Shown in pieces: positions 12,356-62,596 of a DNA stretch of 62,806 bases. This DNA comes from an uncultured virus (IMG/VR IMGVR_UViG_3300034272_003223). Taxonomy: Duplodnaviria; Heunggongvirae; Uroviricota; Caudoviricetes. The notes beneath the pieces were generated by a model, which did not search any database, was not told the DNA's origin, and saw only the letters and a program-made list of their open reading frames with translations. The stretch lies in IMG/VR virus record IMGVR_UViG_3300034272_003223. One strand, 5' to 3'. Every line of letters begins with the position of its first letter. The first letter of the stretch is position 1. Made by a program: the position numbers and the translations under genes.

Positions 12356-15250
12356 TTATTCTTGAGGAGCCGGTAAGAAAGAATCCATGTTAATATCGAT
12401 TCCTAATAGAGAGTCTGAAGAAGTAGATTTAGTTCTAATATTATTAGCTTGCTCAACTTTAAAGTATTTAAGCTGATCGTCAGTTATCTTTCCATTGATT
12501 AAAACATAATCTCCGGTATGCTTACTTACTGCCATAAAGTAGGTTCCATCTTGTAAGTATCGGTCAAATTCAATTTTCAAGACTCCATTTAGATAGGCCT
12601 GGTTTGTAAATGTTCCGTCTTCAGCAATTGCATTATTAAATGTTGAAACCAATTCATCTTTATAGTTTTTATAAATTAGGTTAAATCCCGATGCTAAGAT
12701 TTCAACAACCTCTGCTTTATTTGATGCCTGAACTGCGGCTGTAATTCCTTGGCTAAAATATTCCTTTCTTGGGTTAGCTGCAGCACTTGGTGCAAATGAT
12801 GTAGAATTTTCAAGATATTCTGGAACTTCTTGTCCAGCTTCTGTAAATATGTCAGATAAACCTTTTCTAATATAGTTTCCAGCGTCAGCTCCCATACCGG
12901 TTCCGCTCTGTCCAGTTAATCTAAAATTATCTCCACTTGATTTAATTTCAATTGAATCACCTCCAACTTTAATATCTCCTTTAGTTTTATTATCCGCATT
13001 TACTGCATCTTTAACTAGGATAGACATCAAGATCTCTCCACGACCGATATTTACATTTCCAACTGATCCAATTAAATTGAATAATTGCTCATATAATTCT
13101 GGGCTAAGTCCTGTAGTATTAAATAGGGTTTTTAAATTTCCATTTGGGCTTGACGTAATATCTTCAAGCGTGATAGTTGGATTATCTAAATACGCTAATA
13201 GGTCATCGTCTTGGTCAAGCTCATCTGCGATTGTAACAATAGTTTTTGCTAAATCTTTATAACCCTTAGTTTTGCTAAGAATATCAAATAGATCTTTGGT
13301 TACATCATTGTGGGTTCTCTTTAAGAGTTTTTCAATCTTTTTATAGAGAGCTTCATTGTATGGAGCATCAATAATAAGATCCAATAGAGCAGTTTTCTTT
13401 TTATCCAACTCTTCAACTGAAATTGATTCAGTTAATAAAGACTCTTCAATTTCTTTACCCATATTATAGAATTCAGAATGAAGTGGTTTACTGGTTAAAT
13501 TTTTGTATAGAACAAAATCTTGGTCTTTAACTGATTTAATTAAGTCGCTCTCTAATTCAATTTTAGGAACTTCAACCACTCTAAGCTGAGATGGAATCTT
13601 AGCGTATGGAGCCTTTTTATTAATTCGATTTAAATCTATTGATAAATCTGGAATAAAGTCTGGATTTGTTGCAATCGCCTTAATTGAATAACCTGGACCA
13701 ACTGACTTTATTAGTTCATCGATTCCAATTGAATCGACACTACCTCCCCCTACTACATAATCAGAGGTTTTAGAAAGTCTATCAATTGAACTTTTAACAG
13801 TATCGATTGACATTGGAAAAACTGAACTTCTTTTTCCAGGGTGGTATGCTACCATTAAACAAGGAGAATCATATTTTCCTTTAATATTAGCAGCAATCTT
13901 TTCGTGCTCTTTACTTAGGGGTTGAAATTTATCTAGGTAAACAATTACCTCAACTTCTTTTTTTTTATTTTGGTCTGCTTGAAATTGACTGAAAAAATCA
14001 GTTGCATCCTCATCAGTTCCAAAAAATTGATTAAAGGTTGGGAAAAAAGATTCGTTTAACTTATCTTCTGCTGCCAATTGAACCTTAGATATTTGAGATT
14101 TTAGAGTTTCTTTCATAGTTTTATTAAAGAATGTTGAGCTAACTCTAATGTTCTTCTTTCTAAATGTATTTAGGAAAACTCTATAAAGTTCTTTGAGCGT
14201 TTTATCAGAATCAATTAAATTAATAACAATATCATCATTAATTAATGATCGGTTAACGTCAAATTCAGGTTTATTTAAGAATTCTGGTGTTGTAATTTCA
14301 AGTCCACGATATTTGCTACCATGTTCCTGAACAAAATCTTTGAAAATTGCATTTATAATTTGAATGTATCTTCTTTCAAATGTTGTACCATTTGGTTTAA
14401 TTGCATCAAGATCCGCTTGTGAATAAGTCTCAATGAAATTCATTAAGTCAGCAGTCATGATCCAAATATAATCATCAGTTTTAGGTGCTTCAACTCTAGC
14501 CTGAGCCTTTTCCTTTGCTCTTGCTTGGAATACTGGGTCTACTAATTTTGCTAAAAATACAGAGTCTTCTCCATTTGGCTCATAAAATCTAAATACAATA
14601 CCTTCAATATCTTTGTCTGCACTATCTCTTAAAAATGAAGTTTTAAGTTCAGGGTTTAGGACATTAATAATGTATTTAGTAAATGACGCAGTTTTAAACT
14701 TTCCAACCAGTTCATCAAGAGGAGTATAGACAAAGTCTAAAATCTTTTCCTTTTGATCTTCGGTTAGCTTTCCTTGAAAAATAATTGGTGGGCGTTCAAT
14801 ATCTAAAATATCTGCCCATTTGTCTAAATCTTCTTTATCTTGAATAGTCTCCGCTTGTTCGCCTGCCTCATCCAATATATGAATATAACTTAGGATTAGG
14901 TGATTCTTAGGAAGTCTATCATATTGGATTGACTGTGCAGTTGGAGAACTAAAATACTCCATTCCAAAATGATAATTACATGGAAGCTTTTCGATTACCT
15001 CTGACGATAACTCATCAAAGTGCTTAAGTGCAGGATTATAGTATGAACTTAGGACACGATCTACTCCAGTTAATTTAGTATTACGTTTAAAAAATTCAAA
15101 AGGTTCTTCAGAATTTCCACAGTTTCTTTGAGCACCAAAGAAGGCACCGTCCATTTTTTCATTAACGATAACTTCTTTGTTTAATAGAGCTTCTAAGAAT
15201 TCTTTGCCCTTTTTTTCGTAAATATCTTTTAAGTGGTTTAAACCTGCCAT
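12356..15250 (-). CDS. Multidomain protein: RNA-ligase-like nucleotidyltransferase + degenerate cytidylyltransferase-like domain + PD-(D/E)xK nuclease-like domain
   Basis: NEKMDG (motif I), GMEYF, IEGIVFR and LAKLV ligase-type motifs; KFQPLSKEH degenerate HIGH-like motif; GRGE...KGDIKVGGDSIEIKS nuclease-like motif. Confidence 0.6.
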   Translation of the reverse strand: MAGLNHLKDIYEKKGKEFLEALLNKEVIVNEKMDGAFFGAQRNCGNSEEPFEFFKRNTKLTGVDRVLSSYYNPALKHFDELSSEVIEKLPCNYHFGMEYFSSPTAQSIQYDRLPKNHLILSYIHILDEAGEQAETIQDKEDLDKWADILDIERPPIIFQGKLTEDQKEKILDFVYTPLDELVGKFKTASFTKYIINVLNPELKTSFLRDSADKDIEGIVFRFYEPNGEDSVFLAKLVDPVFQARAKEKAQARVEAPKTDDYIWIMTADLMNFIETYSQADLDAIKPNGTTFERRYIQIINAIFKDFVQEHGSKYRGLEITTPEFLNKPEFDVNRSLINDDIVINLIDSDKTLKELYRVFLNTFRKKNIRVSSTFFNKTMKETLKSQISKVQLAAEDKLNESFFPTFNQFFGTDEDATDFFSQFQADQNKKKEVEVIVYLDKFQPLSKEHEKIAANIKGKYDSPCLMVAYHPGKRSSVFPMSIDTVKSSIDRLSKTSDYVVGGGSVDSIGIDELIKSVGPGYSIKAIATNPDFIPDLSIDLNRINKKAPYAKIPSQLRVVEVPKIELESDLIKSVKDQDFVLYKNLTSKPLHSEFYNMGKEIEESLLTESISVEELDKKKTALLDLIIDAPYNEALYKKIEKLLKRTHNDVTKDLFDILSKTKGYKDLAKTIVTIADELDQDDDLLAYLDNPTITLEDITSSPNGNLKTLFNTTGLSPELYEQLFNLIGSVGNVNIGRGEILMSILVKDAVNADNKTKGDIKVGGDSIEIKSSGDNFRLTGQSGTGMGADAGNYIRKGLSDIFTEAGQEVPEYLENSTSFAPSAAANPRKEYFSQGITAAVQASNKAEVVEILASGFNLIYKNYKDELVSTFNNAIAEDGTFTNQAYLNGVLKIEFDRYLQDGTYFMAVSKHTGDYVLINGKITDDQLKYFKVEQANNIRTKSTSSDSLLGIDINMDSFLPAPQE

Positions 15251-50808: not shown

Positions 50809-51935
50809 TAGTGACTATCGCCAACTTCCCAATTTTCTGCATAGATTAAGTAATCTGGATTAATTACTTTTGCAACTTTGCTTCTATCTCCAGTATGGTG
50901 TTTTACAACAACTCCTTCATGAGGTACTTTAGTTCCAAAGATAAAATTATCAAAGACATACATATCTTCAATTTCTTTATTCCAATCTCCTACATAAAGT
51001 ACATCAACATAAGGTAGGTCCATTTCAATTCCAACAAAATTAAAGGCCTCGTCAGTTGAACAGTATTTGCCATTGATTTCCAAGTCAAATCCTGCAAATT
51101 CAATTTCTTTTAGACCATAGTCATAATTCTTTTGAATACCTGCTCCATAGATTTCTCCATATAGAACAACGCCAATTCCAATACCATCTGGGAATCTTTC
51201 GGGATCCTTGACAAACTTCCATAAAACCTGTTTAAGATTATACTTTGCCGCAATATCATACCAGACATTAGTGTCGTAGAAGCCCTGAGAGTCTGATCCT
51301 TTTTCTACATTATGCGAACCTACTACGAATTCGTAATCGACCCACTTTGCACCAAAGAATTTCTTTACCTTATCGAATAGAGATAATTTGTTTTTCTTTA
51401 CAATACCATATCGAGCATTGGTTCCATGGATCTTACGAGTGATCTCAACCCAATCATCTTCAGTAAAAATTCCTGGTACATTCTTTGCATTTGGAAATTT
51501 GTAATAGATATGGAAGTTTGGATTTTCTGAGTATCTGATCTTTTTACCAGAACTCAATTGAACTTGCTTAACCGGTGGTTCATATTTCCAAATATCCATT
51601 GCATACATCATGTCCTTACCTTCATAGTAATTTTCCATGAATGGAACATGTTTAATTGGAATGATTAGACACTCTGAATATACTCCACGTAATTTTACAG
51701 TACGAACTCTACCGCCTTTACGTAAATAATTTGTAACATTTAGGCTGTCAGACAACTCGACTGGAATTACTGCATCAGTTGTTGCAACTACTACAAGATC
51801 CCCATTCGAGTATTGTCCCTTTTGGATAATTGCTTGCCATCCACTGACTAATGCCAATTCAATAGCATCTGCTCCTGGAATAGGTACGATTTCACCAATA
51901 CTTGCTACAAAGCAAACTGAATTATTATTTTCCAT
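50808..51935 (-). CDS. RNA ligase, DRB0094/Rnl5-like family
   Basis: N-terminal PIPGADAIE...RVRTVKLRGVYSECL; TRKIHGTN motif I, YGEIYG, HEGVV, AKVINPDYL. Confidence 0.88.
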   Translation of the reverse strand: MENNNSVCFVASIGEIVPIPGADAIELALVSGWQAIIQKGQYSNGDLVVVATTDAVIPVELSDSLNVTNYLRKGGRVRTVKLRGVYSECLIIPIKHVPFMENYYEGKDMMYAMDIWKYEPPVKQVQLSSGKKIRYSENPNFHIYYKFPNAKNVPGIFTEDDWVEITRKIHGTNARYGIVKKNKLSLFDKVKKFFGAKWVDYEFVVGSHNVEKGSDSQGFYDTNVWYDIAAKYNLKQVLWKFVKDPERFPDGIGIGVVLYGEIYGAGIQKNYDYGLKEIEFAGFDLEINGKYCSTDEAFNFVGIEMDLPYVDVLYVGDWNKEIEDMYVFDNFIFGTKVPHEGVVVKHHTGDRSKVAKVINPDYLIYAENWEVGDSH

Positions 51936-51937
51936 TT

Positions 51938-52351
51938 TTATAATTTTATTTCAAAACGATTTTTCATTTGTTCTAACTTATCATCAGGCACACCATGTAT
52001 ATTTACACCACCATGTCGATTTTCTACAATTAGGGAAGTAACTCGATAGTTCCACTGTTTAGCTAAATCAAAGTATGCCTCCATTTCCCACTCTTGTGTA
52101 AAGGTATTAGATACAATAATTGTACTATTATGTCCAGTAGTATGGTTTAGGAGCATCGCCTGTTCAACACTATCTTTGCACCACCTATGAGCATCTTTAA
52201 TTTTAGCTGGATCAAATTTATAAACCCCATCCTCAATAAAATATTGATCTGCTTCAAAGTGAGCGCATCCACTTGCGTTTGCTCCTAATAGGTTTGCAGT
52301 TGTACTTTTACCTGAACCTGGGATTCCTCTTACTAAAATTAAATTTTTCAT
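51938..52351 (-). CDS. P-loop kinase (polynucleotide-kinase / AAA_33-like)
   Basis: LILVRGIPGSGKST, EADQYF, IVSNTFTQEWE, HGVP. Confidence 0.85.
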   Translation of the reverse strand: MKNLILVRGIPGSGKSTTANLLGANASGCAHFEADQYFIEDGVYKFDPAKIKDAHRWCKDSVEQAMLLNHTTGHNSTIIVSNTFTQEWEMEAYFDLAKQWNYRVTSLIVENRHGGVNIHGVPDDKLEQMKNRFEIKL

Positions 52352-58707: not shown

Positions 58708-59557
58708 ACGCTGAGATTATACGTTTTAACGTTAGATCTTTACATAGGATTATTGTTTCCCTACTTATCCAGAGACTTTTGATCTCTACTCTAACAGTGC
58801 CGGTTTTTTAGGTGTACCACTCCTTGAGCTGCGGGTTTGAACTACTCTCCTCATATTATATCTACCAGAATCTGCCGATCCCGTTAACCCTTGCGAGGCT
58901 ATAGATTTTTCTGAGAACTCGTATTGGACTTGCGATCCTTTACGGCAACTGACAACCAGTTACTAGGTAGGCACCTTTCGTTCGCAGCTGACGAGCGCTT
59001 AAGCTTTGTTTTAAAATGGATTTTAGTTATTCACCAAAAGAACTTTTTATTTCCAAAGTTTATTGACTCTGTGGATTGTGAAAGTAGTGGCTCGTCACTA
59101 GGCCAGCCCCGATTTTGTCAGGGTCGATACTTAACTACTCTCTGAGATATCCCTACCTCAATTTTTCCGGATTCCTCTTAACTGCAGTCTTGGTAGACTG
59201 ATGATAAGGTTAATAACAGCACCACCTGTACATCAACTTGTCTTTCGACTTTAAGGCTCCCATTAAATTGGAGTTCGCAATCATGGAGTCGGATGATTCC
59301 ACTCCTTGCAAATATCCTACGAGTTAATCTTATTGAGGTTCCCCTCTCAACTAAACGACCCACATCGCCTAGTCAGCATTCCAGTTCTCCTACAGTGTTA
59401 CCCTCAGATACTTAGGACTTCTGATATCCCGCTTGCCTACTCGAGTTCCTTGCGAAACCGCAGAGCTGATAAGTCATATAGCTCCACTTTATACCTGTTT
59501 CCAGGTTTATTTGACGATCATAGGCGACCGTTTTGCAACCTAGCAAGCTAGGCTACA
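58708..59557 (-). ncRNA. GOLLD-like giant structured ncRNA (~850 nt)
   Basis: No credible ORF; GC-enriched; many GNRA hairpins and long-range helices; next to a tRNA; GGTATAATA promoter-like site at about 59600. Confidence 0.75.
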
Positions 59558-60404: not shown

Positions 60405-60409
60405 AAATT

Positions 60410-60512
60410 GCTGTCTTTCCAAGCTGTCAACCAGTGCACGTTCCAAACCCTTGTTTGGATGACTGCTTCTATTACTAGAATGCTTTATTTGCAAGTCGTC
60501 GTTGTGTTGGAT
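60410..60512 (-). ncRNA. Structured spacer RNA ending in UGACA-GAAAGA hairpin (copy 1)
   Basis: Hairpins TTCTA-GTAA-TAGAA and TCCAAAC-AAGG-GTTTGGA; 3' TGACAGCTTGGAAAGACAGC. Confidence 0.5.
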
Positions 60513-60519
60513 TTCTGCG

Positions 60520-60625
60520 TAGTCATAATTGGATTCGAACCAATTACAGGCTTTACCATAAAGAGTGCCATTAGCAGTTAATCTCAACCTTGGGGAGGTG
60601 CCCTTCAACCAATGAATTTATGACT
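60520..60625 (-). ncRNA. tRNA-like RNA with expanded multibranched anticodon domain
   Basis: Acceptor AGTCATA/TATGACT, D-like arm TTCA-TTGGT-TGAA, perfect T-arm ATTGG-TTCGAAT-CCAAT. Confidence 0.65.
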
Positions 60626-60630
60626 ATTTG

Positions 60631-60704
60631 CGGTCCGTACGGGACTCGAACCCGTGATCTCCTACGTGACAGGCAGGCGTCCACTCCAACTGGACCGACA
60701 GACC
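60631..60704 (-). tRNA. tRNA-Asp(GTC)
   Basis: Cloverleaf; loop CTGTCAC. Confidence 0.95.
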
Positions 60705-60807
60705 ATTTAGATATTTCAGAAGAGGTTACTAAACTTCAGCTCTTCAAAGCTTCTCAGCTTACAGCGTTCCGTCAATTGTTTACGCTGCTAACTTATTCGG
60801 TAAAGCG

Positions 60808-60884: not shown

Positions 60885-61070
60885 CAAATCTTGCATGCTC
60901 ACCATGCTTGTGGATTTGATTGAACATAGTTTACTGTTCACCTGTTTTGAGTGCACCAAAGAGCAGGGTCCATCACATAATACCTTGGGTCATGTATACT
61001 TCATTGGGTAGCTACTCCCACGAAGCCAAGGTCTCTTTCAACGGTGCTAATCCGTCTTATGTAAGATTTG
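60885..61070 (-). ncRNA. ~186-nt structured RNA, possibly manA-like
   Basis: Terminal helix CAAATCTTACAT/ATGCAAGATTTG; internal ACCTTGG/CCAAGGT; exactly fills the spacer between tRNA-Ala and tRNA-Glu. Confidence 0.55.
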
Positions 61071-61073
61071 TAG

Positions 61074-61147
61074 TGGAGATGACAGGAATCGAACCTGCGA
61101 CCCTCTGCGTGCAAGGCAGATGCTCTAGCCAACTGAGCTACATCCCC
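61074..61147 (-). tRNA. tRNA-Ala(TGC)
   Basis: Cloverleaf; G3:U70; loop CTTGCAC. Confidence 0.95.
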
Positions 61148-62521: not shown

Positions 62522-62596
62522 TTGCGGGACTGGGACTCGAACCCAGAACTTCAGCTTATGAGACTGACGAGATAGCCACTTTCTACGCATCCCGCA
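62522..62596 (-). tRNA. tRNA-Met(CAT) with irregular D-arm
   Basis: Acceptor TGCGGGA/TCCCGCA; loop CTCATAA; T-loop TTCGAGT. Confidence 0.85.

What the first reader, a model, noticed from the sequence alone, without database searches (positions are those of the whole stretch)
60520..60625. tRNA mimic with intact acceptor, D and T arms but a multibranched domain in place of the anticodon arm
Seen on the minus strand, 106 nt: AGTCATA (acceptor), AA, TTCA-TTGGT-TGAA (D-like), then G GGC[ACCT-CCCCA-AGGT ... TGC-TAATG-GCA ... CTTTA-TGG-TAAAG]CC TGTA, then ATTGG-TTCGAAT-CCAAT (T-arm) and TATGACT A. The 7-bp acceptor and T-arm are perfect, which argues against decay. About 58 nt forming up to three hairpins replace the anticodon and variable arms. 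The element lies 5 nt downstream of tRNA-Asp. Inference: a processed tRNA-elbow mimic, for example a decoy for anticodon nucleases or tRNA-sensing defence systems, or a scaffold. It recalls T4 species 1 RNA and YrlA-type tRNA mimics.
Basis: partly seen in the sequence, partly recalled or inferred. Interest (0 to 1): 0.72.

Follow-up and report, generated by a model that had tools for sequence, protein, structure and literature searches.

The report
Anticodon-less tRNA-shaped phage RNA family
A lake phage carries, among its tRNA genes, a gene for a small RNA that folds like a tRNA but has a conserved four-armed module where the anticodon arm should be; it belongs to a widespread, undescribed phage RNA family whose job is unknown.

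Summary
Window 60520-60625 (-) is a 106-nt tRNA-shaped gene that ARAGORN does not call and Rfam's tRNA model scores below threshold (23.7 vs 29 bits), because about 50 nt replace the anticodon arm. It is not a decayed tRNA. I found 76 distinct relatives in uncultured viral and metagenome contigs. They have one copy per genome, always lie on the strand of the neighbouring tRNAs, and none turned up in 185,579 prokaryote genomes or 50,697 GenBank phages. Covariation supports the acceptor, D, T, closing and H2 helices (23 of 29 pairs change on both sides; 99% of cells paired). Two payload hairpins (CUCCCCAA loop; UUUAUGGYAAA) are almost invariant in sequence. Loop size varies and no excision restores an anticodon arm, so the RNA cannot decode. 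Many copies share the acceptor and T arm with at least 31 other insert classes in the same phages. Those paralogues, and four copies of this family, also have a leucine-tRNA-type D arm. This "leucine-tRNA chassis" was noted before in this scan on other DNA; this payload class was not. Most likely the tRNA frame gives processing and stability, and the payload binds an unknown conserved partner. The closest known RNAs are the T5 RNA1 and T4 species 1 stable RNAs.

The parts
60520..60625 (-). whole RNA gene, 106 nt from acceptor position 1 to the discriminator
   Evidence: CM R1 94.1 bits; Rfam tRNA 23.7 bits end to end; sequence
60619..60625 (-). acceptor stem 5' strand AGUCAUA; pairs with 60521-60527 (UAUGACU)
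   Evidence: 7 of 7 pairs change on both sides among 76 sequences, 99.6% of cells paired
60604..60616 (-). D arm UUCA-UUGGU-UGAA with the elbow GG
   Evidence: 4 of 4 stem pairs covary; loop U-GG-U invariant in the 29-sequence alignment
60600..60602 (-). closing helix 5' strand GGC; pairs with GCC at 60549-60551 and stacks on H1
   Evidence: 2 of 2 modelled pairs covary (G-C 49, U-A 20, A-U 2, C-G 2)
60587..60599 (-). H1: ACCU-CCCCA-AGGU, a C-rich loop on a near-invariant stem
   Evidence: stem invariant in the core family; remote relatives L363 and L472 have GCUC/GAGU and ACUC/GAGU; loop variants CCCA, CCAA, CUCCA
60563..60585 (-). H2: GAG...CUC base with a variable apical hairpin (here UGC-UAAUG-GCA)
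   Evidence: 4 of 4 base pairs covary; the insert is 12-23 nt in 24 forms, and the inner stem changes CGG/CCG, CAG/CUG, CGA/UCG
60552..60562 (-). H3: UUU-AUGGU-AAA, the most conserved stretch
   Evidence: UUUAUGGYAAA in 41 of 41 viral variants; in the scan that left H3 free, the one member without it has UUAAUGGCAAA (L318); the pairing cannot be tested (0 of 3 pairs vary)
60545..60548 (-). 4-nt variable loop UGUA
   Evidence: alignment A1; its second base G is invariant
60528..60544 (-). T arm AUUGG-UUCGAAU-CCAAU
   Evidence: 4 of 5 pairs covary; loop UUCGAAU
60520..60520 (-). discriminator A, followed by CGC (no encoded CCA)
   Evidence: discriminator A 32, G 6, U 3 among 41 variants

Best explanation
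It is the gene for a roughly 100-nt non-decoding small RNA built on a tRNA frame. It is one payload class of a phage 'leucine-tRNA chassis' superfamily. Shown: the L-shape helices are under selection, and the anticodon arm is replaced by a four-way junction. That junction consists of a closing helix stacked on H1, a variable H2, and H3. H1 (CUCCCCAA) and H3 (UUUAUGGYAAA) are frozen in sequence. There is one copy per phage genome, always on the strand of the neighbouring tRNAs. The family was found only in viral and metagenome contigs. Inferred: the RNA is transcribed with the tRNA genes, cut at its 5' end by RNase P, trimmed and CCA-tailed like the neighbouring tRNAs, and protected from decay by the tRNA fold. 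The frame would then serve as a handle for processing and stability. The payload would be the working part, binding a highly conserved partner (protein or RNA) in the infected, probably Bacteroidota, cell. The genes around it suggest a partner in translation or RNA damage and repair. The partner is not identified.
For: A clean family: 41 hits at 60 bits or more against 31 bits or less for ordinary tRNAs. 76 distinct members are in the final alignment; 71 score 60 bits or more and 5 remote relatives score 37.7-50.5 bits. Covariation: 99.0% of cells paired, 23 of 29 pairs changed on both sides, 0 of 500 shuffles reach this, and slid controls give 28-53% paired. The nearest relative (G001) has an identical upstream tRNA-Asp but an 81%-identical element with compensatory changes in the acceptor, D and T stems. 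tRNA-type flanks: N-1 = U in 32 of 42, against 324 of 464 for real tRNAs in the same loci and a background T of 29%. Trailer CAA in 28 of 41, with no encoded CCA, as for most neighbouring tRNAs. 686 of 686 flanking tRNAs lie on the same strand, and an upstream tRNA lies within 10 nt in 15 of 64 loci. The RNA is kept where no tRNA lies within 8 kb (14 of 64 loci). One copy in each of 5 of 5 records, 4 of them complete. Scaffold reading: 45 of 64 copies have an acceptor within one mismatch of AGUCAGG/CCUGACU, and that acceptor and T arm also carry 65 further RNAs (45 distinct, 31 insert classes) in 25 of the loci. The D arm of those paralogues matches the window's tRNA-Leu(UAG), as does that of T5 RNA1. 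Neighbours: RNA-repair-type genes in 27 of 64 loci, SmpB in 16, GOLLD in 23, ClpP in 9.
Against: No RNA evidence for this element. Metatranscriptome contigs cover the neighbouring tRNA-Glu to tRNA-Ala stretch, but contigs cannot show small RNAs or their ends. No partner was found. No neighbouring gene is universal (the most frequent is in 20 of 64 loci). H3 pairing and any loop-loop contact cannot be tested, because the sequence never varies. The folding energy is unremarkable. Every collection scan was anchored on H1 or H3 motifs, so their invariance is partly built in. Only one search left H3 free, and only searches left H1 free. The alignments behind the pair counts were fitted to the model's structure.
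Confidence: 0.55

Rival explanations
1. The frame is the working part. The RNA would be a tRNA-elbow and acceptor decoy that soaks up a host tRNA-binding defence protein (a tRNA nuclease or tRNA sensor). The insert would only prevent it from entering translation.
For: The elbow (D-loop GG, T loop) and the L-shape helices are conserved. RNA-repair genes of the kind used against tRNA nucleases (Rnl1, a PNK-like kinase, a phosphoesterase, cREC) lie within 8 kb in 27 of 64 loci.
Against: The payload sequence is far more conserved than the frame: acceptor, D and T stems change freely while H1 and H3 do not. A mere blocker would drift. There is no anticodon loop for an anticodon nuclease to cut. The phages already supply many real tRNAs that would serve as decoys.
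Confidence: 0.15
2. A charged, non-decoding tRNA look-alike. It would be CCA-tailed and aminoacylated (by LeuRS, which on recalled knowledge does not read the anticodon). It would then act as an amino-acid donor, or enter ribosomes in a tmRNA-like manner, perhaps with the phage SmpB.
For: Leucine-tRNA ancestry of the frame. Discriminator A in 32 of 41 variants. SmpB lies 1.2-5.5 kb downstream in 16 of 64 loci.
Against: Most members have rebuilt the Leu-type D arm into a 5-nt loop with A8 in place of U8. The discriminator varies (G in 6, U in 3). The acceptor sequence varies widely. Of the phage genomes with SmpB that were checked, three hold a full-length tmRNA above Rfam's gathering score, close to SmpB in two of them, and a fourth holds a full-length match just below it (45.6 bits), so tmRNA is the obvious partner. 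G003, G001 and the window show no SmpB. No frame through the RNA is conserved, because indels shift it. No G3-U70.
Confidence: 0.1
3. Processing punctuation only. The tRNA shape would merely direct RNase P and 3' trimming to cut the long tRNA or mRNA transcript, and the excised RNA itself would have no job.
For: It abuts the upstream tRNA at 1-8 nt in 15 of 64 loci. An earlier scan note (e1-5980454) describes chassis RNAs bracketing genes.
Against: Punctuation needs no frozen 25-nt payload. The RNA occurs once per genome. It persists away from any tRNA (14 of 64 loci).
Confidence: 0.07
4. A working tRNA with an insertion or a small intron that is removed to restore an anticodon arm.
For: The closing helix plus H1 can be drawn as a 5-bp stem with a 7-nt loop UCCCCAA, if the H2-H3 block is read as an insertion between positions 41 and 42.
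Against: That loop would have C at position 33. Its length varies (CCCCA 34, CCCA 5, CCAA 1, CUCCA 1). ARAGORN with intron options finds nothing. H2 and H3 are conserved or covary like functional parts. No relative lacks the block. I recall no bacterial splicing system for such an insert.
Confidence: 0.03
5. A decaying pseudo-tRNA.
For: It is not called by tRNA finders.
Against: 76 distinct relatives have compensatory changes in five helices and 99% pairing.
Confidence: 0.01

Closest known systems
Phage T5 RNA1 (AY543070, 30501-30644, annotated 'tRNA-like stable RNA with unknown functions'); also RNA2
   Same: It is encoded in the phage tRNA region. It has an acceptor-like stem, a T arm and a leucine-type D arm (GCCGG-AAUUGGUAG-ACGG), with a long insert where the anticodon arm should be. 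Its function is unknown.
   Different: The payloads show no similarity: with my model RNA1 scores 11.4 and RNA2 17.1 bits, as low as ordinary tRNAs. The sizes are 144 and 125 nt. The host is enterobacterial.
Phage T4 species 1 RNA (rnaC) and species 2 RNA (rnaD), AF158101 70908-71171
   Same: They are small stable RNAs encoded at the end of the tRNA cluster. The 3' part of rnaC has a T arm and an acceptor-like stem. Their function is unknown.
   Different: rnaC has a 5' extension outside the tRNA-like part. It scores 16.8 bits with my model and only 17.5 bits against an Rfam tRNA-type model. No payload motif is shared.
Leucine-tRNA 'chassis' RNAs of uncultured phages
   Same: 45 of 64 copies share the acceptor AGUCAGG/CCUGACU, and many share the T arm ACAGG-UUCGAAU-CCUGU. 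The L004 and L062 types also keep a UG-GCGU-AAUGGUA-ACGU D arm. They lie in the same loci as 65 further frame RNAs.
   Different: This payload class was not in the scan's index. Most members, the window copy included, have a rebuilt short D arm, and the window copy has a diverged acceptor and T stem.
Engineered tRNA scaffolds for recombinant RNA
   Same: An RNA of interest replaces the anticodon arm, and the tRNA body gives processing and nuclease resistance.
   Different: That design is man-made. Here it is natural, conserved and specific to phages.
YrlA-type bacterial Y RNAs (tRNA-like module, encoded beside RNA-repair genes; recalled)
   Same: A tRNA-like elbow, and a neighbourhood of RNA-repair genes.
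   Different: In YrlA the RNA ends form the Ro-binding stem and the tRNA-like part is internal (recalled). There is no Rfam match and no TROVE gene in 0 of 5 records.

Membership tests
Canonical tRNA (Rfam RF00005) | 7-bp acceptor stem, D arm, T arm with a UUCRANY loop | tested here: met
Canonical tRNA (Rfam RF00005) | 5-bp anticodon stem with a 7-nt loop, U33 and a fixed anticodon | tested here: not met
   48 nt replace 13 model positions and the score is 23.7 against a threshold of 29 bits; no ARAGORN call; H1 loop length and sequence vary
Intron-containing tRNA | removal of one contiguous insert restores a normal anticodon arm | tested here: not met
   ARAGORN intron modes find nothing; the only candidate arm has C33 and a loop of variable length
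tmRNA | tRNA-like domain plus pseudoknots and a tag reading frame; match to RF00023 or an ARAGORN tmRNA call | tested here: not met
   no tmRNA match at E up to 10; ARAGORN -m finds none; no conserved frame; true tmRNAs lie elsewhere in related phages
YrlA / Y RNA | Rfam Y-RNA-type match; terminal stem that binds Ro60; Ro60 (TROVE) gene present | tested here: not met
   no match; the ends form an acceptor stem; TROVE in 0 of 5 records
Phage leucine-tRNA chassis RNAs (undescribed superfamily) | acceptor AGUCAGG/CCUGACU and T arm ACAGG-UUCGAAU-CCUGU shared with paralogues that carry other inserts | tested here: met
   45 of 64 family copies are within one mismatch; the window copy itself is not, having AGUCAUA and AUUGG, and belongs through its family
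Phage leucine-tRNA chassis RNAs (undescribed superfamily) | leucine-type D arm UG-GCGG-AAUUGGUAG-ACGC | tested here: inconclusive
   kept in shortened form in the L004, L062 and L100 types, replaced by NCCA-UUGGU-UGGN in most members and in the window
T4 rnaC/rnaD and T5 RNA1/RNA2 stable RNAs | sequence or profile similarity beyond the generic tRNA frame | tested here: not met
   11.4-17.1 bits with R1, the range of ordinary tRNAs
Any tRNA-like RNA processed by the tRNA machinery | mature 5' end made by RNase P, CCA added at the 3' end | not testable with these tools
   only indirect evidence: U at -1 and a CAA trailer like the neighbouring tRNAs; the RNA runs were contigs

The most novel reading that the evidence does not exclude
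The chassis RNAs are a natural display system. These phages mount interchangeable RNA modules on one leucine-tRNA frame, so that the host's own tRNA machinery matures and stabilises them. Each module would be aimed at a different conserved host component. This module, with its frozen C-rich loop and AUGG loop, would be an RNA effector that binds a core part of the translation or RNA-damage apparatus of Bacteroidota hosts. It might work together with the GOLLD RNA that lies 0.8-5.5 kb away in 23 of 64 loci. That would be a new class of phage-encoded RNA effectors.
Probability: 0.15. Interest if true: 0.85.

Novelty: new variant of a known kind. Interest (0 to 1): 0.62.

Why it matters
Stable tRNA-like RNAs of phages T4 and T5 are annotated in the GenBank records simply as stable RNAs of unknown function. 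This family gives that old puzzle a well-defined case. It has 76 distinct sequences, a secondary structure backed by covariation, and a short frozen payload that can be mutated or used as bait. It also shows that the tRNA frame is reused for dozens of different inserts in the same phages. That points to a general phage strategy for making stable small RNAs through the host's tRNA maturation pathway. Finally, these genes are missed by ARAGORN and by Rfam at its gathering threshold for most copies, including this one, so phage RNA content is under-annotated.

Tried and rejected
(1) Expression. Of the runs found I laid four metatranscriptome runs, all kept as contigs. None covers the element, except one low-depth contig of a relative (X17 record 16, 60583-60778, depth 2.16). 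Contigs cannot show small RNAs or their ends, so there is no verdict.

(2) Anti-Shine-Dalgarno mimic (ACCUCC). The window's genes show no SD, only A/T-rich leaders. Remote relatives change ACCU to GCUC or ACUC.

(3) Ribosomal protein S21 as partner. PF01165 occurs in 5 of 10 records that carry the RNA, and I have no base rate. There is none in the window.

(4) SmpB as partner. tmRNA is present in the same phages.

(5) T-box-like pairing of UGGY with the NCCA end. There is no association between Y and the discriminator (C with A in 50 of 73).

(6) H1 CCA to H3 UGG loop-loop contact. It cannot be tested, and L379 has the loop CACAA.

(7) Antisense targets in the window. Matches of 9 nt occur at chance level, with 6.2 expected per strand.

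(8) Complementarity or identity with GOLLD. No 6-mer is shared by at least 4 of 5 GOLLD RNAs.

(9) A conserved neighbouring protein. None is universal. Pfam and PHROGs name nothing for the commonest unknown clusters.

(10) A peptide reading frame from the AUG. Indels shift it.

(11) Prokaryote genomes. The strict pattern gave 0 hits; the lax pattern gave 75, and 0 of the 75 pass the model.

(12) GenBank phages. No match with either of two family members.

(13) Literature. Searches, and passages of PMC5737381 and PMC7162821, gave nothing on this family. The supplements of PMC5737381, which hold the drawings of all 224 motifs, were not opened.

(14) Earlier scan index by sequence: nothing.

Full report
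**What is at the site.** It has a perfect 7-bp acceptor stem, a 4-bp D stem with the loop UUGGU, and a perfect T arm with the loop UUCGAAU. The discriminator is A. About 50 nt lie where the anticodon arm should be. The element sits 4-5 nt after tRNA-Asp and 115 nt before tRNA-Gly, inside a run of 18 ARAGORN tRNAs that all lie on the minus strand.

ARAGORN does not call it under any option tried. Rfam's tRNA model aligns it end to end but below threshold (23.7 against 29 bits), with 48 nt in place of 13 model positions. No other Rfam family, YrlA and tmRNA models included, matches it at E up to 10.

Folding energy alone is unremarkable: z = -0.89, and 35 of 200 shuffles fold as well.

**The host phage.** The window is a piece of a large phage with about 35% G+C. 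It encodes a T4-type portal, a UvsW helicase, a family-B polymerase, two RNA ligases with a PNK-like kinase, ClpP, and a ClpB-like ATPase. It also holds a GOLLD RNA and a freshwater-1 RNA.

Its genes have A/T-rich leaders and no Shine-Dalgarno motif. Its portal is nearest to uncultured huge phages (39% identity) and to the Lak phages of Prevotella (34%). Passages of PMC7162821 place those clades on Bacteroidetes hosts. A Bacteroidota host is therefore inferred, not shown.

DNA runs that hold the region are lake or freshwater metagenomes: 14 runs hold at least half of the sampled words.

**A family, not a relic.** The nearest held record (G001) has the same tRNA-Asp, base for base. Its copy of the element is only 81% identical, with compensatory changes in the acceptor, D and T stems.

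- An 18-mer from H1 finds 47 viral loci, all with the full frame.
- A scan anchored on H3 plus the T arm finds 71 loci. Of the 24 that lack the exact 18-mer, 17 are divergent members and 7 are chance matches.
- A covariance model built on 29 sequences separates members (41 hits, 60.3 bits or more) from ordinary tRNAs (30.8 bits or less).
- A laxer scan with 8-kb flanks gave 63 members in 80 loci.
- Neither pattern found a member in one genome each of 185,579 prokaryote species: 0 hits with the strict pattern, and 0 of 75 lax hits pass the model.
- Neither of two family members matches any of 50,697 GenBank phage records.
- Each of 5 records searched whole, 4 of them complete genomes of 256-318 kb, holds exactly one copy.

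**Structure.** On 76 distinct sequences, 99.0% of cells form standard pairs and 23 of 29 pairs show changes on both sides. None of 500 shuffles reaches any of the five measures, and sliding the partner by one to three columns drops pairing to 28-53%. The alignment was fitted to the model, which favours the structure, but the slid controls and the raw sequences agree.

Pairs with changes on both sides, per helix:

| Helix | Pairs that covary |
|---|---|
| Acceptor | 7 of 7 |
| D stem | 4 of 4 |
| Closing helix | 2 of 2 |
| Base of H2 | 4 of 4 |
| T stem | 4 of 5 |
| H1 | 2 of 4 (remote relatives only) |
| H3 | 0 of 3 |

The apical part of H2 comes in 24 forms of 12-23 nt with its own compensatory changes.

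H1 (ACCU-CCCCA-AGGU) never varies in the core family. In remote relatives (L363, L472; 38-48 bits) it becomes GCUC/GAGU and ACUC/GAGU, while the string CUCCCCA is kept. So H1 is a real helix built around a conserved C-rich sequence.

H3 (UUUAUGGYAAA) is the most conserved stretch. In the one scan that left it free, three of the four loci without the motif are chance hairpins ahead of ordinary tRNAs, and the fourth, member L318, has UUAAUGGCAAA. Its pairing cannot be tested.

The payload is thus a four-way junction: a closing helix stacked on H1, one unpaired U, H2 as a variable arm, and H3.

Members with U8 have A at the start of the D loop. Members with A8 have U there. This fits conservation of the 8-14 tertiary pair of tRNAs, which is my reading and not a test.

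**Why it cannot decode.** The only arm that resembles an anticodon arm (closing helix plus H1) would have C at position 33. Its loop is 4 or 5 nt by the stem that the family keeps, and it varies: CCCCA 34, CCCA 5, CCAA 1, CUCCA 1. No excision restores a standard arm, and no relative lacks the block.

**Processing signals.** The base before the 5' end is U in 32 of 42 distinct leaders. It is U in 324 of 464 real tRNAs of the same loci, against a background T of 29%.

The discriminator is followed by CAA in 28 of 41 variants and never by CCA. Most neighbouring tRNAs likewise carry C then AA, and only 48 of 465 encode CCA.

All 686 tRNAs in the flanks lie on the strand of the RNA. In 15 of 64 loci a tRNA ends within 10 nt upstream.

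I infer, but have not shown, maturation by RNase P, 3' trimming and CCA addition.

**Context.** Of the 64 loci:
- 34 hold 8 or more tRNAs within 8 kb;
- 16 hold one or two;
- 14 hold none.

The RNA therefore does not depend on a tRNA array.

No protein cluster is universal; the most frequent is in 20 of 64 loci. Recurrent neighbours are:
- RNA-repair-type genes (cREC domain, AAA_33 kinase, metallophosphoesterase, T4-type RNA ligase 1) in 27 of 64 loci;
- SmpB in 16;
- ClpP in 9;
- GOLLD on the same strand in 23.

Of the phage genomes with SmpB that were checked, three hold a full-length tmRNA above Rfam's gathering score, close to SmpB in two of them. A fourth holds a full-length match just below it (45.6 bits). 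SmpB therefore needs no new partner.

**The larger picture.** In 45 of 64 loci the family RNA has an acceptor within one mismatch of AGUCAGG/CCUGACU. The same acceptor and T arm (ACAGG-UUCGAAU-CCUGU) carry 65 further RNAs of 84-189 nt in 25 of these loci, up to 9 per locus. They comprise 45 distinct sequences in 31 insert classes by blastn.

Most of these paralogues have the D arm UG-GCGG-AAU(U)GGUAG-ACGC. That is the pattern of the window's own tRNA-Leu(UAG) and of T5 RNA1. Some members of my family (the L004 and L062 types) still have a shortened form of it. Most, the window copy included, have rebuilt it.

Earlier notes of this scan describe the same 'leucine-tRNA chassis' on other DNA. I reached it independently from the flanks and then found the notes. 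This payload class was not in the index.

**Most likely mechanism.** The frame drifts in sequence while keeping its shape. The payload keeps its sequence. The same frame is reused for many payloads.

This is what one expects if the frame is a handle that recruits the host's tRNA maturation enzymes and protects the RNA, and the payload is the working part that recognises something highly conserved.

What that partner is I could not find. The tests of an anti-SD mimic, S21, SmpB, T-box-like CCA pairing, antisense targets and GOLLD pairing were negative or empty.

I put 0.55 on the scaffold-plus-payload reading. The rest is spread over a frame decoy, a charged non-decoding RNA, pure punctuation, an odd tRNA and a relic.

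**Novelty.** The kind is known from the GenBank annotation of T4 and T5: stable tRNA-like RNAs in phage tRNA clusters, function unknown. This family is not in Rfam 15, nor in GenBank phages, nor in the papers I searched. I rate it a new variant of a known kind.

Noticed in passing
window 60406-60428 (-); also L251, L257, L221, L227, L201, L209: The motif TGACAGNTTGGAAAGACARNCAA lies 7-9 nt upstream of the 5' end of tRNA-type genes, with 7 hits on the RNA strand and 0 on the other. In the window it precedes tRNA-Gly; in four loci it precedes this family's RNA. It may be a promoter or a processing signal.
   Followed up: partly
window 60915-60977 (-): A freshwater-1 RNA (Rfam 72.4 bits, gathering score 72) lies between tRNA-Ala and tRNA-Glu. 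Metatranscriptome contigs of three runs cover 60803/60807 to 61020-61131, with at most one differing letter.
   Followed up: partly
window 58708-59142 (-): A GOLLD RNA (242.8 bits) lies 1.4 kb downstream of the element. GOLLD is on the same strand within 8 kb in 23 of 64 family loci.
   Followed up: partly
window 62522-62596 (-): A tRNA with a CUCAUAA anticodon loop is scored by Rfam (42.8 bits) but missed by ARAGORN.
   Followed up: no
flanks of the family loci, e.g. L203, L261, L238, L242, L263 (sequences): At least 31 further insert classes ride on the same AGUCAGG leucine-tRNA frame, at 84-189 nt and up to 9 per 16-kb locus. One of them (L203) has an 8-nt loop UUCAAGGU that ARAGORN reads as a four-base anticodon.
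   Followed up: partly
L207 4991-5386 (+), L245 2827-3223 (+): The phage tmRNA genes (50.3 and 65.7 bits) lie on the strand opposite to SmpB, GOLLD, the tRNAs and the family RNA.
   Followed up: no
window 50811-52351 (-) and 12359-15250 (-): Two RNA ligase genes: one beside an AAA_33 (PNK-like) kinase, the other the N-terminal part of a 964-aa protein. Related phages add a cREC domain protein and a phosphoesterase.
   Followed up: no
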